Origin: Burkholderiales bacterium
Lineage (GTDB): Bacteria > Pseudomonadota > Gammaproteobacteria > Burkholderiales > SG8-41
Direction of reading: 5' to 3'
DNA length: 64,000 nucleotides
NCBI GenBank assembly: GCA_035524795.1
Contig: DATKOF010000007.1
Span: 19,732 to 83,731, forward strand
Shown piece by piece: positions 20,879 to 24,111 of this stretch. The notes beneath the pieces are model-generated. The model worked only from the letters and a program-made list of their open reading frames with translations. It searched no databases and had not been told where the DNA came from. Numbering within the stretch: the first letter of the stretch is position 1; every line of letters starts with the position of its first letter. Made by a program: the position numbers and the translations under genes.

Positions 20879-21495
20879 AAACGCCGCGCTACTGGAAGCG
20901 CGCCGCGCGCGAACTGTCCGAGCGCGACGCGGTGATCCGCAAAATCGTCCTTGCCACGCCCGGCCTTGCGCTGCGCTCGCGCGGCGATGCGTTTGCGACG
21001 CTGGCGCGCGCCATCGTCGGCCAGCAGATTTCGTTGAAGGCTGCCGACAGCGTATGGCTGAAATTCAATGGCGCGGTACACACCATAACACCGCACGCGG
21101 TCCATAAGCACAACGCGGATCTGCTGCGCGCGTGCGGCCTGTCGCAAGGCAAAGTGACCTACCTGAAAGACCTCGCGCACCATTTCCTGGAAAAGAAACT
21201 GGCGCCCGATCGCTGGGAAGAAATGAGCGATGACGAACTGATCGCCGAGCTGACGCAGGTCAAGGGCATCGGCCGCTGGACCGCCGAGATGTTCCTGATC
21301 TTCCATATGACGCGGCCCAATGTATTTCCGATCGCCGACCTTGGCCTGCAAAAAGCGATGAGCCTGCATTACAACAAGGGCAAGCCGCTGTCGCAGCGGA
21401 AAATCAAGAATATCGAGCAGAACTGGCAGCCGTGGCGCTCGGTGGCGACCTGGTATATGTGGCGCAGCCTTGACCCAGTTCCGGTGGAATACTAA
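20875..21495 (+). CDS. DNA-3-methyladenine glycosylase II-like HhH-GPD base-excision enzyme
   Basis: 206 aa from the ATG at 20875, which overlaps the upstream stop as ATGA. An HhH-GPD motif is present (LTQVKGIGRWTAEMFLIF, ...PIADLGLQKA). The upstream 377 codons of track ORF 19744.. are antisense to comEC and to the DUF2062 gene. Confidence 0.8.
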   Translation: MKTPRYWKRAARELSERDAVIRKIVLATPGLALRSRGDAFATLARAIVGQQISLKAADSVWLKFNGAVHTITPHAVHKHNADLLRACGLSQGKVTYLKDLAHHFLEKKLAPDRWEEMSDDELIAELTQVKGIGRWTAEMFLIFHMTRPNVFPIADLGLQKAMSLHYNKGKPLSQRKIKNIEQNWQPWRSVATWYMWRSLDPVPVEY

Positions 21496-21634
21496 TCTTC
21501 CATCAATTATCTCGAAACCGGACAATTTGAACGCAAAATAAAAATTCCGCTTTCGGCCAAAAGCGGCCATATCTGACACGCGGTTTTGGTGAAAATGTGA
21601 ATAGGTTAATACCTGTTTGTTACGGACAAAACTT

Positions 21635-22467
21635 ATGCAACGACTGAAGAAGATATTCTTCATTTCTTTGGCATTGTTTGTAAGCGTTGCTCAGGCCGAA
21701 TCCGGTGTCTGGCCGAAATTGCAAAATGGGACTGATATCGCTCAGTGTAGTGAGGCTCTGAAGATCGCCAAAGCAGCATTTCAATCTGATAACTTCAGCT
21801 TATCCGATAATCCACCGATACCGGATGATTTAGGAAGTGCCATTATTTTTTCTCTGGTAGCTATATAGCGGATAGCGATTCTGTTTTTGAGAAAATACCA
21901 ACACCAACGGGAATCGGCGGTGTTTTCTGGCAAAAGAAAGCGAAATATGGAATGCGATTTGTAATATTAGATGAACATCCTTCGATATATAGCGGTGAAT
22001 CATATTCACTCTTTTCCATTAAGGACGAGATTACACCCGATCAATTCTTGCCTCAAAGCGGGGAGGCAAATAATGTGAGGCAGGAGGGTGTTGCCACTCC
22101 GACTATAAACCCACTGATCGATGATGGGATTCTGCCGTTAGTATTGCAAGAAAAAAAGTCCGGGGACATTTGGGCTATCGACCTTGGACCTACTAATGTT
22201 TATTTTAACGATTGGCAAATATATTTGGTTAATACCGAAGGAATAAAGCAGCCCTGTACAATAAATTTTCGCCCTGATGTGCATCCTGCAACAACCCTTT
22301 TGCCTAAACCGGTTCGTAAATTAGCCGATCTTCTCAGGGATACGATGGGAAAAGATGCAAACTTTGGAGTTGATGTGGAGACCACTTGGACGAATGCTCT
22401 TTTACGCCCATGGGCATTAAGTGTCCGTATATGGACTCCTCCTCGTTTGCAAGCACTCCGTTTTTAG
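21635..22467 (+). pseudogene. Secreted protein of unknown function, disrupted by a frameshift in a T6 run and by the IS110-family insertion
   Basis: The signal peptide is MQRLKKIFFISLALFVSVAQA. Frame A stops at 21866-21868, while frame B is open from 21829 and continues into track ORF 21952..22467. The two frames meet at the T6 run (21846-21851). The present C-terminus runs into the IS terminal repeat. Confidence 0.6.
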
Positions 22468-22719
22468 GCGTTCGGTACGACTGCTCACGTATATCCGGCC
22501 TCTAACTGGAGCATCAATTCACTGATGCATGGGCCATGATGGGCTATTCGCGCGTCGGTTCCCCATTGCTTTGACGGGCTCTGAGGCCTCGGACAATTGC
22601 GGGTTTTACCAACGCCGGTTCGACCGGTTTGCCATCAAATGGCTTGCTACGCAATCGCGATGGAAGCACTCCTCTAACTAGGGTTACGTTTCCCTGCTAC
22701 AGATGATTTGCTCTTTGGC
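22431..22719 (-). ncRNA. Candidate bridge (guide) RNA region in the long 3' non-coding end of the IS110-family element
   Basis: This is 289 bp of non-coding sequence with short hairpins at 22511-22528, 22615-22627 and 22631-22643. It also contains segments identical to the DNA flanking both IS ends (see findings). No covariance model could be run. Confidence 0.3.
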
Positions 22720-23751
22720 TCAGCCTGCCGCCAGCTCTGGCTGGTAATCCTTGCCGCTTGTCATCATCGCCCAGGCGATGCGTGCGGTCTTGTTGGCCAT
22801 GGCCACTGCCGCAATGTTCGGGTGGCGGCGTGTCGCAATGCGGGTGCCCCACTGGCTTAACCGGTCATCCTTGGTCTTGGCGGTTCGAATCATGGCGCGG
22901 GCGCCGTGAACCAATAACGATCGTACATAGGCATCGCCGCGCTTGCTGATGCCTAACAGGCGGTCTTTGCCTCCTGAGCTCACTTGCTTCGGCGTCAGGC
23001 CGAGGGACGCCGCCATCTGCCGGCCGTTGGCAAACGGATGGGCATCGCCGACACTCGCCAGCAAAGCCGTGGCAATCATCGGCCCCACGCCGCGCAGTTG
23101 CTGCAGACGCTTGGCCATCGGATCGGATGCCGCAATCAGTGCCACCTCCTGATCCAGCTCTGTCACCCGATCATTCAGCTGCTGCAGATCCTGCCACAAG
23201 CCGGCAAGAAGCCTGCGAAACCGGCTGCTCAAGCCGTTCTCCGCATCTTCCAGCCAGCAGGGGATAGCTTGGCGCAAGTGCAACCATTCTTTAGGAGCGA
23301 CGATGCCATATTCCGCTGCCAGACCCCGCACCTGATTGGCCTTGGCCTTGCGCTGATCCATCAGGGCGGCGCGCACCCGATGCAGGGCCTGAATATCCTG
23401 CTGTTCGACTGTCTTCACCGGCACAAACCGCATGTGCGGCCGGCTCATCGCCTCACAAATCGCTTCTGCATCGTTGGCGTCGTTCTTGTTGCTCTTCACA
23501 TAGGGCTTCACAAACCGTGGAGCCATCAGCCTTACCGTAAAGCCTTTGGCCTGCAGCTGGCGCGCCCAATGGTGCGCACCCCCACAGGCTTCCATTCCGA
23601 TCTCGCAGTCAGGCTCGATCTTCTCCAGCAATACCCTCAGCCATTCCGCCCGATTGAGCTTCCGCCGCCACACCGGCTTCTCGTTGCAATCCACCCCATG
23701 CACTTGAAACACGTTCTTGGCCAAATCTACTCCAACGCGGATAATCTTCAT
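22720..23751 (-). CDS. IS110-family transposase (DEDD/RuvC-like N-terminal domain, C-terminal Transposase_20 domain)
   Basis: 343 aa. MKIIRVGVDLAKNVFQVHGVD...MEACGGAHHWARQL...NDANDAEAICEA shows the typical IS110 N-terminal motifs. AAGGAG lies 7 nt upstream of the ATG. Confidence 0.9.
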   Translation of the reverse strand: MKIIRVGVDLAKNVFQVHGVDCNEKPVWRRKLNRAEWLRVLLEKIEPDCEIGMEACGGAHHWARQLQAKGFTVRLMAPRFVKPYVKSNKNDANDAEAICEAMSRPHMRFVPVKTVEQQDIQALHRVRAALMDQRKAKANQVRGLAAEYGIVAPKEWLHLRQAIPCWLEDAENGLSSRFRRLLAGLWQDLQQLNDRVTELDQEVALIAASDPMAKRLQQLRGVGPMIATALLASVGDAHPFANGRQMAASLGLTPKQVSSGGKDRLLGISKRGDAYVRSLLVHGARAMIRTAKTKDDRLSQWGTRIATRRHPNIAAVAMANKTARIAWAMMTSGKDYQPELAAG

Positions 23752-24111
23752 CTTGGACTCCTTCTCGCTCTATCGACTGGTTAATGACATTTCCAGTCTG
23801 GCACATCGATGCCGCTTAGGTGAGGAGGAGTCCATCCCATTGCTTTGGGTCGAAAGCAGGCCTTTTAAATTTTTGTTGAAGCTGTCTAATTCATTTTTCA
23901 GAAACGGTTTATCGAACACGGCCAGTCGCTTTCGTAAGCGCAACACCCGCTCCTGCCAACAGCACTGGGCGTGAACGCGTATCCTTCCGCTTGTTACAGT
24001 CCTGCCTGTAATTTTCGGAGCAGCGTAACTAGTCGCGGGAAATAAAGTAAACCGCGAGCACGATGCAGACTACGGTAATGGTAAGGCCAATTTCGAACAT
24101 GGGAACCCTCT

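What the first reader, a model, noticed from the sequence alone, without database searches (positions are those of the whole stretch)
22431..23835. IS110-family element whose long non-coding end contains sequences identical to both flanks: a candidate bridge-RNA guide
The transposase ORF (22720-23751, minus strand) sits in a 1405-bp unit bounded by the perfect 14-bp inverted repeat ATGGACTCCTCCTC / GAGGAGGAGTCCAT, with AT on each side of both junctions. The 5' non-coding end is 84 bp and the 3' non-coding end is 289 bp (22431-22719). Four observations concern that 3' end. (i) CCCATTGCTTTG (22562-22573) is identical to the 12 nt of host DNA that directly abut the opposite end of the element (23836-23847). 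(ii) CGTATAT (22488-22494) is identical to the junction at the near end (22426-22432). (iii) ACTCCTC (22668-22674) repeats part of the terminal repeat (22435-22441), and AAGCACTCC (22451-59 and 22664-72) and CCTCTAACT (22499-507 and 22671-79) each occur twice. (iv) Short hairpins (22511-28, 22615-27, 22631-43) lie between these segments. From established knowledge, IS110/IS1111 recombinases use an element-encoded bispecific bridge RNA whose two loops pair with target flanks and donor ends. For the IS1111-like subgroup the RNA lies 3' of the transposase. The match pattern here is what such guides would look like, and it implies the target GTGTCCGT-AT-CCCATTGCTTTG. A self-complementary TTGCAA (22447-22452) 16 nt from the end could serve as an outward -35 for a junction promoter after circularisation (inference).
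Basis: partly seen in the sequence, partly recalled or inferred. Interest (0 to 1): 0.6.

Follow-up and report, generated by a model that had tools for sequence, protein, structure and literature searches.

The report
IS1111-type insertion sequence with bridge RNA
This is an intact insertion sequence of the IS110/IS1111 family that carries, downstream of its transposase gene, a structured guide ("bridge" or "seek") RNA; this class has been known since 2024, so the copy is a new member and not a new kind of system.

Summary
The general idea is right: this is an IS1111-group element with a guide RNA 3' of the transposase. Several details are wrong. Comparison with 65 full-length relatives and two plasmid relatives gives four results.

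1. The 14-bp inverted repeats are subterminal. The element runs about 22427-23841 (1415 bp), with extensions AATGGG on the left and ATA(C) on the right. The empty target is CAAAGC^GGACACTT, a terminator-like hairpin repeat.

2. A 182-nt RNA (22658→22477, minus strand) has a conserved fold: 97% of cells paired and 17 pairs with compensatory changes. A covariance model built without the window hits it at E=1e-46.

3. Four guide segments covary with DNA across relatives.

4. Joining the corrected ends creates TTGCAA-N17-TACAAT, a junction promoter.

RNA expression and transposition activity were not tested.

The parts
22427..23841 (-). Whole insertion sequence with corrected ends, 1415 bp. One C/G base is ambiguous, so 22428-23842 is equally valid.
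   Evidence: Homology to 65 relatives ends at the inverted repeats. The next 6 nt on the left and 3-4 nt on the right are invariant and are absent from uninterrupted copies of the target repeat. They covary with RNA guides.
22720..23751 (-). Transposase/recombinase gene, 343 aa. [quoted passage not shown]
   Evidence: Pfam PF01548 and PF02371. NCBIfam NF033542 'IS110 family RNA-guided transposase', 353 bits against a cut-off of 140. The C-terminal domain aligns to the IS621 transposase 8wt6 at E=1.3e-9.
23822..23835 (-). Left subterminal inverted repeat (ATGGACTCCTCCTC in element orientation).
   Evidence: (I3); conserved in all relatives.
22431..22444 (-). Right subterminal inverted repeat (GAGGAGGAGTCCAT in element orientation).
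   Evidence: I3.
23836..23841 (-). Left terminal extension AATGGG, the right-donor (RD) half-site read by the RDG.
   Evidence: It is absent from empty target repeats. Variants ATGAG, ATGGT and ATGGA are matched by RNA CUCAU, ACCAU and UCCAU.
22427..22430 (-). Right terminal extension ATA(C), the left-donor (LD) half-site read by the LDG. Base 22427 is the shared crossover base.
   Evidence: Variants ACAC (L065, L075, L081) and CTAT (L090) are matched by RNA AUACACG and AUCUAUG.
22477..22658 (-). Core of the bridge/seek RNA gene, about 182 nt, enclosed by helix P1 (22651-57 pairs with 22478-84).
   Evidence: Covariance model R1, built from 61 relatives without the window, scores 185.9 bits at E=1.3e-46 and gives the only hit in 64 kb. 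The fold has 97.4% of cells paired and 17 pairs with double changes, and 0 of 500 shuffles reach this.
22590..22598 (-). Right-target guide (RTG), RNA AAUUGUCCG, on the 5' strand of the target-binding internal loop (loop 22589-22600). It is complementary to the top strand of CGGACACTT.
   Evidence: 8 of 9 positions are complementary to the window's right flank. It covaries with the flanks in relatives: L012 10/10, plus L013, L016 and L090. Permutation p<5e-5.
22568..22573 (-). Left-target guide (LTG), RNA CAAAGC, on the 3' strand of the same loop (loop 22564-22575). It is identical to the top strand of the left target.
   Evidence: 6 of 6 positions match 23842-47. It covaries in relatives (GATAGC, GCGAAC, ATAAAC, CGGAAC, AAGAGC, and GCUUUGU in L090). 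Permutation p<5e-5.
22539..22543 (-). Right-donor guide (RDG), RNA CCCAU, complementary to ATGGG of the left terminal extension. It overlaps the 3' strand of predicted helix P7.
   Evidence: Three independent variant pairs occur in relatives. One relative (L080) and the nested IS in L004 are mismatched at one position.
22488..22494 (-). Left-donor guide (LDG), RNA AUAUACG, in the multiloop between P5 and P1. It is identical to the right end of the element plus the crossover base.
   Evidence: It covaries with the right extension in L065, L075, L081 and L090.
22511..22528 (-). Hairpin P6 inside the donor-binding domain.
   Evidence: All five pairs show compensatory changes among relatives (helix 9).
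22447..22452 (-). Outward -35 hexamer TTGCAA of the predicted junction promoter. The -10 hexamer TACAAT forms only when 22429-22427 (TAC) abuts 23841-23839 (AAT).
   Evidence: The best sigma-70 match across the reconstructed circle junction is 9/12 with a 16-18 nt spacer in nearly all 65 relatives, against 6-7/12 in the integrated state. Promoter activity was not tested.
23842..23875 (+). Left half of the target (GCTTTG = LT) and the rest of the host hairpin, followed by a T-run. Joined to 22419-22426 it restores GTCCGCTTTGGGTCGAAAGCAGGCC-TTTTAAATTTTT.
   Evidence: Terminator-like call at 23847-63. The same hairpin repeat type is found uninterrupted in the window (21541-66) and in many loci.
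22419..22426 (+). Right half of the target (AAGTGTCC on the + strand, GGACACTT in element orientation).
23754..23767 (-). Third copy resembling the inverted repeat (GAGAAGGAGTCCA), overlapping the Shine-Dalgarno sequence of the transposase gene.
   Evidence: D5 and I7. It is conserved in relatives and tracks inverted-repeat variants in part. Its function is inferred only.

Best explanation
The feature is an intact insertion sequence of the IS1111 group of the IS110 family, about 1415 bp long (22427-23841, transposase on the minus strand).

Its 3' non-coding end encodes a structured RNA of about 180 nt of the bridge/seek RNA type. One internal loop holds two target guides. The RTG pairs with the top strand of the right target half (C)GGACACTT. 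The LTG pairs with the bottom strand of the left target half CAAAGC.

A multiloop domain holds two donor guides. The RDG (CCCAU) pairs with ATGGG at the element's left tip. The LDG (AUAUACG) pairs with the bottom strand of ATATAC at its right tip.

By analogy with IS621, ISEc11 and related elements, the DEDD/serine recombinase bound to this RNA would bring the circularised element (junction ...GTCCATATAC|AATGGGATGGAC...) together with the host site CAAAGC^GGACACTT. The strands would be exchanged at a single shared C, with no target duplication. The host site is a terminator-like hairpin repeat.

Circularisation would also assemble the promoter TTGCAA-N17-TACAAT, which would drive the transposase gene and, further downstream, the RNA.

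Shown here: homology, the conserved fold, guide-DNA covariation, the corrected ends and the empty-site sequence. Inferred: RNA expression, protein binding, circle formation, promoter activity and strand-exchange chemistry.
For: - Protein family.
- 65 full-length relatives share the inverted repeats and the invariant extensions.
- The RNA core is more conserved than the element overall: 82% mean column identity in A2 against 68-79%.
- Consensus fold: 97.4% of cells paired, 17 pairs with compensatory changes, 0/500 shuffles reach this, and slid controls give 25-45%.
- A leave-window-out covariance model hits 22477-22658(-) at E=1.3e-46 and nowhere else in the window.
- Target guides covary with the flanks: LTG 250/378 matches against 185 on permutation, RTG 349/540 against 286, both p<5e-5. 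Explicit cases are L012, L013, L016, L026, L035 and L065/L075.
- Donor guides covary with the terminal extensions.
- A 51%-identical Klebsiella plasmid relative has all four guides re-written on the same scaffold to fit its own ends and flanks.
- Uninterrupted paralogous repeats read ...RAAGC-RGAC... and lack AATGGG and ATA.
- The junction promoter appears only with the corrected ends.
- The 5'-to-3' order of top-strand guide then bottom-strand guide matches the published IS1111 order (PMC11187229).
- Donor guides in a multiloop match the description of IS1111 elements in PMC11208160.
Against: - There is no expression, binding or transposition data.
- No Rfam family matched, and the published covariance models were not available.
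- No second copy of this exact element was found, and no circle junction either.
- The single-sequence fold is only modestly better than shuffles (z=-2.0).
- Donor-guide covariation rests on few independent events. L080 and the nested IS in L004 are mismatched at one RDG position.
- The RDG overlaps a predicted RNA helix (P7), so its availability for DNA pairing is uncertain.
- Helices P1, P3 and P8 are invariant, so they are untested.
- Permutation tests ignore the shared ancestry of the copies.
Confidence: 0.9

Rival explanations
1. The element is bounded exactly by the 14-bp inverted repeats (22431-23835). The 12-mer and the 7-mer are both guides for host flanks, and the target is GTGTCCGT-AT-CCCATTGCTTTG with AT as the core.
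For: Both matches exist. Homology found by blastn stops at the inverted repeats. AT lies on both sides of one junction.
Against: - The bases outside the inverted repeats (AATGGG and ATAC) are invariant in 55 or more copies in unrelated genomes, while uninterrupted copies of the same host repeats lack them.
- No AATGGGATACGG empty site occurs in 508 kb.
- When these bases vary, they vary together with RNA positions carried by the element, while the target stays the same.
- The RTG complementarity starts 3-4 nt outside the inverted repeat.
- The -10 hexamer forms only with the extended ends.
Confidence: 0.04
2. The 3' non-coding end is conserved as DNA, for example as transposase-binding sites, a terminator or a regulatory region. 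On this view it is not a guide RNA, and the flank matches reflect a shared target preference imposed by the protein.
For: No direct RNA evidence was obtained here. Several conserved segments, including P1, P3 and P8, never vary.
Against: - 17 base pairs keep pairing through changes on both sides, which is a property of RNA helices.
- The unpaired loop segments change in step with the flanking DNA, including the wholesale change in L090.
- One guide is complementary and the other identical to the same DNA strand, as in experimentally proven systems (PMC11187229, PMC11208160).
- The protein belongs to the family shown to be RNA-guided.
Confidence: 0.03
3. The conserved flanks, including the hairpin, are part of a larger composite mobile unit that travels with the IS. 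They are not a pre-existing host target.
For: The left flanks share extended similarity (GGCC-N2-AAGC and further hairpin arms) across many genomes.
Against: - The same hairpin repeats occur many times without any IS, including 60 nt from an occupied one in L011 and at 21541-66 in the window.
- Similarity in the flanks decays within about 15 nt, and the contexts differ: Pseudomonas REP in L027 and several distinct repeat families elsewhere.
- The flank variation is mirrored by the guides.
Confidence: 0.03

Closest known systems
IS1111-group insertion sequences with an experimentally shown seekRNA (ISEc11, ISPa11, ISKpn4, ISPst6; Siddiquee et al. 2024, PMC11187229)
   Same: - The transposase is 330-350 aa, with a DEDD domain and the GL-P----SG motif.
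- The inverted repeats are subterminal, with terminal extensions.
- The long non-coding region lies downstream of tnp.
- The RNA carries a segment complementary to the top strand 5' of a segment complementary to the bottom strand.
- Insertion is into folded or palindromic targets (REP, attC) without duplication.
- A promoter is created at the circle junction.
   Different: - The sequence is distinct. The closest named relatives found here are only 39-47% identical in protein: IS5708, IS1618 and IS4321.
- The target is different (CAAAGC^GGACACTT in a terminator-like hairpin).
- The conserved RNA domain here is about 180 nt and includes a donor-binding multiloop, whereas the minimal seekRNAs described are 82-96 nt.
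- No experiments exist for this clade.
IS621 bridge RNA and recombinase (Durrant et al. 2024, PMC11208160; Hiraizumi et al. 2024, PMC11208158)
   Same: - The RNA is bispecific, with separate target and donor modules.
- Each module has one guide identical to the top strand (LTG, LDG) and one complementary to it (RTG, RDG), adjacent to the crossover.
- The C-terminal domain is homologous (8wt6, E=1e-9).
   Different: - The RNA lies 3' of the gene, not 5'.
- The order of guides within a loop is reversed.
- The donor guides sit in a multiloop, not a simple internal loop.
- The subterminal inverted repeats are long.
- The shared crossover sequence appears to be a single base. The next base is A in the donor and G in most targets, and the left junction always keeps the donor's A. 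IS621 has a CT dinucleotide core instead.
IS4321/IS5075 (IS1111 family; target the terminal repeats of Tn21-type transposons)
   Same: Same family branch by protein (38.9% identity, annotated 'IS110-like element IS4321 family transposase'). That they have subterminal inverted repeats and insert site-specifically comes from the title of a paper cited in PMC11208160; I could not read the paper itself.
   Different: The relationship is much more distant and the target is different. Their RNA was not examined here.

Membership tests
IS110 family, IS1111 group (insertion sequence) | DEDD (RuvC-like) N-terminal domain plus a PF02371 C-terminal domain | tested here: met
   PF01548 at E=4.9e-17 and PF02371 at E=2.7e-22. 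NF033542 scores 353 bits against a cut-off of 140.
IS110 family, IS1111 group (insertion sequence) | C-terminal GL-P----S(T)G motif with the catalytic serine | tested here: met
   The translation contains GLTPKQVSSG. It aligns with GLTPRRYESG of IS621.
IS110 family, IS1111 group (insertion sequence) | Subterminal inverted repeats of 7-17 bp with short terminal extensions | tested here: met
   The inverted repeat is 14 bp and perfect. Extensions of 6 nt and 3-4 nt are inferred from empty repeats and covariation.
IS110 family, IS1111 group (insertion sequence) | The longer non-coding region lies downstream of the transposase gene, and the transposase is 330-350 aa | tested here: met
   The non-coding regions are 293 nt downstream and 90 nt upstream. 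The protein is 343 aa.
IS110 family, IS1111 group (insertion sequence) | Insertion at a specific sequence without target duplication | tested here: met
   65 copies lie in ...RAAGC^RGAC... sites. No repeat other than one ambiguous base is present.
IS110 family, IS1111 group (insertion sequence) | Circular intermediate with abutted ends and a junction promoter | not testable with these tools
   Only a prediction is available: TTGCAA-N17-TACAAT across the modelled junction. A metagenome scan for abutted ends found nothing relevant.
Bridge RNA / seekRNA | A structured non-coding RNA in the long non-coding end, conserved in fold | tested here: met
Bridge RNA / seekRNA | A loop with two segments that pair with opposite strands of the two target halves next to the insertion point | tested here: met
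   In the window the RTG matches 8/9 and the LTG 6/6. Covariation is seen across relatives.
Bridge RNA / seekRNA | Segments that pair with the element's own ends (donor recognition) | tested here: met
   The RDG and LDG covary with the terminal extensions in L063/66, L077/79, L065/75, L081 and L090. The independent events are few, and there are two single-base exceptions.
Bridge RNA / seekRNA | Match to a curated or published RNA model | tested here: inconclusive
   No Rfam 15 family matched even at E≤10. The published IS110/IS1111 models were not available, so only a model built here could be used.
Bridge RNA / seekRNA | The RNA is expressed, binds the recombinase and is required for transposition | not testable with these tools
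   No expression or biochemical data are available.

The most novel reading that the evidence does not exclude
The donor-reading segment CCCAU is normally locked in an RNA helix (P7) by an upstream RNA strand (GAUGG) that has the same sequence as the element's own left tip. In L063/L066 all three change together: RNA G→A, RNA C→U and DNA ATGGG→ATGAG. On this reading the RNA carries a built-in mimic of its donor DNA. Donor recognition would need strand displacement of that mimic, which would gate donor binding; no such gate is described in the bridge/seek RNA papers read for this review. A related oddity is that the strand downstream of the target guide repeats the element's left end (AU-N-GGG), so the loop also matches the integrated left junction.
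Probability: 0.12. Interest if true: 0.55.

Novelty: new member of a known kind. Interest (0 to 1): 0.3.

Why it matters
For annotating this genome, the review gives the exact ends of the element, its empty site, and the observation that it split a terminator-like hairpin and changed the 3' end of the upstream ORF.

More broadly, the roughly 65 relatives form a natural set of re-programmed guides on one RNA scaffold. They span many target variants, and one relative has all four guides rewritten. This could inform design rules for IS1111-type recombinases, which have been studied less than IS621. It does not open a new question, because RNA-guided targeting by IS1111 elements was published in 2024 and NCBI's family model already carries the name.

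Tried and rejected
- **Rfam:** the scan at E≤10 gave only chance snoRNA-type hits.
- **Second copy in the window:** none was found.
- **Identical copies in GTDB genomes:** none; the best relative is 85% identical in protein.
- **Metagenome scan for the exact target-loop 38-mer:** 0 hits.
- **Metagenome scan for abutted ends (IRR-N0-14-IRL):** the 8 loci returned are all unrelated AT-rich palindromes.
- **Direct comparison with ISEc11:** the record NZ_CP053751.1 is not in the collection.
- **Partridge & Hall 2003:** the paper is not held.
- **ISPpu9/Ssr9 as a possible homologue:** ISPpu9 is an IS110-group element without inverted repeats, so it is not comparable.
- **A two-base core (GG, AT or CR):** I considered each and rejected them. 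The left junction never changes when the right-flank bases vary, and it always keeps the donor base.
- **Pairing of AU-N-GGG with CCCAU:** rejected, because CCCAU variants leave AU-N-GGG unchanged.
- **A sigma-70-type promoter for the RNA inside the element:** none was found on the minus strand.
they are not conserved and only marginally non-random.
Full report
**Checking the observation**

A 343-aa ORF lies on the minus strand at 22720-23751. It carries the two Pfam domains of IS110-family transposases. It scores 353 bits on NCBIfam NF033542, 'IS110 family RNA-guided transposase', against a cut-off of 140. Its C-terminal domain aligns with the IS621 recombinase of PDB entry 8wt6 at E=1.3e-9, including the GLTP....SG serine motif.

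The perfect 14-bp inverted repeat is present, as are the 12-mer shared between 22562-73 and 23836-47, the 7-mer CGTATAT, the short repeats, the hairpins and TTGCAA. A 12-mer of the non-coding end equal to an abutting flank is expected about once in 10,000 trials.

One statement is wrong. AT lies on both sides of the junction only at 22430|22431. At 23835|23836 the outer bases are CC.

**Relatives**

A scan of one genome per species returned 80 loci that encode a 69-85% identical protein. None is identical, and the window holds no second copy.

Sixty-five loci align with the element from its first base to its last. In all of them the bases just outside the repeats are also nearly invariant. In element orientation they read ...RAAGCAATGGG|ATGGACTCC on the left and GGAGTCCAT|ATACGGAC on the right. 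This holds in Pseudomonas, Massilia, Dyella, Sulfuricaulis and many uncultured lineages.

**True ends and target**

The held loci and the window contain many uninterrupted copies of the same host repeats. These are short hairpins of the type GTCCGCTTTnGGCCnAAAGCGGAC. They read ...RAAGC-RGAC..., with neither AATGGG nor ATA between the halves. Two cases are especially clear:
- In L011 an empty copy (GCAGAAAACGGCCCAAAAGCGGACATC) lies about 40 nt from the occupied one (GGCAGAAAACGGCCAAAAGC[AATGGG...ATAC]GGACGTTC).
- In L063 a paralogue TTGCATCGACCGGTTGAGGCCGCC....GGAAGCAGACATT matches the occupied TTGCATCGACCGGTTGAGGCCGCC....AAAGC[...]GGACATT.

The inverted repeats are therefore subterminal, as is described for IS1111 elements (PMC11187229, PMC11208160). 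The element is AATGGG-IR...IR-ATA(C), about 1415 bp, at 22427-23841, with one C ambiguous.

The window's empty site on the + strand is AAGTGTCC^GCTTTGGGTCGAAAGCAGGCCTTTTAAATTTTT. That is a hairpin followed by a T-run, and it probably served as the terminator of the upstream ORF.

The left junction always keeps the donor's base after the crossover C (CA). The right junction carries G or A, as the empty repeats do. The shared sequence is therefore effectively one base.

**The RNA**

The last 230 nt or so of the element are more conserved than the rest. Mean column identity is 82%, against 68-79% for the whole element.

RNAalifold and a hand-completed structure give nine helices. Across them, 97.4% of cells form pairs and 17 pairs keep pairing through changes on both sides. 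None of 500 shuffles reaches these values, and sliding the partners drops pairing to 25-45%. Helices P2, P4, P5 and P6 carry the covariation. P1, P3 and P8 never vary, so they are untested.

A covariance model built from 61 relatives without the window finds 22477-22658 (minus strand) at 185.9 bits and E=1.3e-46. It finds nothing else in 64 kb. It also finds the RNA of a Citrobacter IncC plasmid element (58% protein identity, 139.9 bits) and of a Klebsiella plasmid element (51%, 58.9 bits).

The fold of the window sequence alone is only modestly stable (z=-2.0). No Rfam family matches.

**The target guides**

The internal loop between P3 and P4 carries the target guides.

- **RTG.** The 5' strand of the loop (window RNA AAUUGUCCG, 22598-22590) is complementary to the right target CGGACACTT at 8 of 9 positions.
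- **LTG.** The 3' strand of the loop (CAAAGC, 22573-22568) is identical to the left target at 6 of 6 positions.

Both strands track the flanks in relatives. For the right target:

| Locus | Right flank | RNA guide |
|---|---|---|
| L012 | GGACTTAATC | GAUUAAGUCC |
| L013 | CGCCAGTT | AACUGGCG |
| L016 | GTGTATC | GAUACAC |

For the left target, the variants GATAGC, GCGAAC, ATAAAC, CGGAAC, AAGAGC and ACAAGC are each mirrored in the RNA.

Re-pairing guides with flanks at random lowers the match totals from 250 to 185 for the LTG and from 349 to 286 for the RTG. This gives p<5e-5 for each, with the caveat that the copies are related.

The order of the guides, top-strand complement 5' of bottom-strand complement, is the one published for IS1111 elements (PMC11187229).

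**The donor guides**

The donor guides lie in the multiloop domain, as described for many IS1111 elements (PMC11208160).

- **RDG.** CCCAU (22543-22539) is complementary to ATGGG of the left tip.
- **LDG.** AUAUACG (22494-22488) is identical to the right tip plus the crossover base.

When the tips differ, the RNA differs in step:

| Tip | DNA variant | RNA variant | Loci |
|---|---|---|---|
| Left | ATGAG | CUCAU | L063, L066 |
| Left | ATGGT | ACCAU | L077, L079 |
| Left | ATGGA | UCCAU | L090 |
| Right | ACAC | AUACACG | L065, L075, L081 |
| Right | CTAT | AUCUAUG | L090 |

In L090 the target guides are also rewritten, to GCUUUGUUG and UUUAUUCA, and they fit its flanks GGCTTTGTT and TGAATAAA.

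There are two exceptions. L080 and the nested element in L004 each mismatch the RDG at one position.

- The 12-mer is 6 nt of true target guide (CAAAGC) followed by A-AUGGG. In the RNA these six bases are the end of the loop plus the P3 strand. In the DNA they are the element's own left tip. In most relatives this part reads GAU-N-GGG, and it does not follow tip variants. The exact 12-nt identity is therefore partly specific to this copy.
- CGTATAT is the donor guide, not a target guide.
- The repeats in item (iii) lie upstream of the conserved RNA in a region that varies among relatives. Repeats of that kind arise in 4% of shuffles.
- Of the three hairpins, 22511-28 is helix P6 and covaries. 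22615-27 is the invariant P8. 22631-43 exists only in this copy.

**Junction promoter**

Joining the corrected ends gives ...GCTTGCAAACGAGGAGGAGTCCATATAC|AATGGGATGGAC.... This places TTGCAA 17 nt upstream of TACAAT. The arrangement scores 9 of 12 consensus positions with a 16-18 nt spacer in almost all relatives. The integrated state scores 6-7 of 12.

No sigma-70-type promoter for the RNA was found inside the element. The RNA is probably made from the transposase transcript, as PMC11187229 suggests.

**Verdict**

This is a correctly recognised but ordinary example of a system described in 2024, and it is a new member of a known kind. The review adds the corrected ends, the real target, the missing right-target guide and the donor-guide assignments.

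Expression, circle formation and activity remain untested. Searches for further copies or circle junctions in metagenomes found nothing.

Noticed in passing
L004:4257-5594 and L010:4257-5591 (two contigs of one MAG): A sister element sits inside the outer element's RNA gene at AGAGGC^CGGATATAC. It has inverted repeats ATGGACTCCCGCC and its own RNA (83.6 bits). Its own guides (RNA GAUAUAUCCGG and AAGGCC) match that site. It therefore appears to be programmed to insert into the donor-guide region of its relative's bridge RNA gene.
   Followed up: partly
L017:4166-5496 and L045:3991-5246: Other, unrelated insertions interrupt relatives. One carries CAGGCTGCTGAAATAC... terminal repeats and lies within the left-target-guide loop of the RNA gene (L017). 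The other lies in the 3' end of the transposase gene (L045).
   Followed up: no
window 21541-21566: An uninterrupted hairpin of the same repeat type (CCGCTTTCGGCCAAAAGCGG, flanked by an A/T run) lies 0.86 kb from the element. It matches the element's guides only partly and is unoccupied.
   Followed up: partly
window 21400-22430 and 23842-24100: A stretch of 42-52% G+C lies between genes of 60-72% G+C. The element sits inside it. The two small ORFs there (21617-21868 and 21952-22467) have no family match.
   Followed up: partly
window 21952-22467 (+): This ORF runs into the element and ends inside it. Without the insertion it would continue for 12 more codons through the hairpin (...LSVRFGSKAGLLNFC*). 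The insertion therefore changed its 3' end and split its likely terminator.
   Followed up: partly
window 23754-23767: A third copy resembling the inverted repeat (GAGAAGGAGTCCA) overlaps the Shine-Dalgarno sequence of the transposase gene. It can pair with the left inverted repeat 55 nt upstream. It is conserved in relatives and tracks inverted-repeat variants in part. It may occlude translation or act as an internal binding site.
   Followed up: partly
all occupied sites (window 22427 and 23842; L001-L080; L090): The base after the crossover pyrimidine is always A at the left junction (donor type). At the right junction it is G or A (target type). The RNA guides mostly carry G there. The shared core therefore seems to be a single base, unlike the CT dinucleotide of IS621.
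   Followed up: partly
L081 (Citrobacter freundii IncC plasmid pKHM-1, NZ_AP014939.1 163.5-165.1 kb): A 58%-identical relative has the same inverted repeats and a matching RNA. It lies between mobI and a parM-like gene, in a site that fits its own target guides poorly. This may be an off-target or an old insertion.
   Followed up: no
L063:6860-7026, L020:2870-3041 and L020:3434-3613: Additional matches to the RNA model lie close to full copies. One is cut by the end of the locus and one is weak (52 bits). They may be further copies or solo RNA-end fragments.
   Followed up: no
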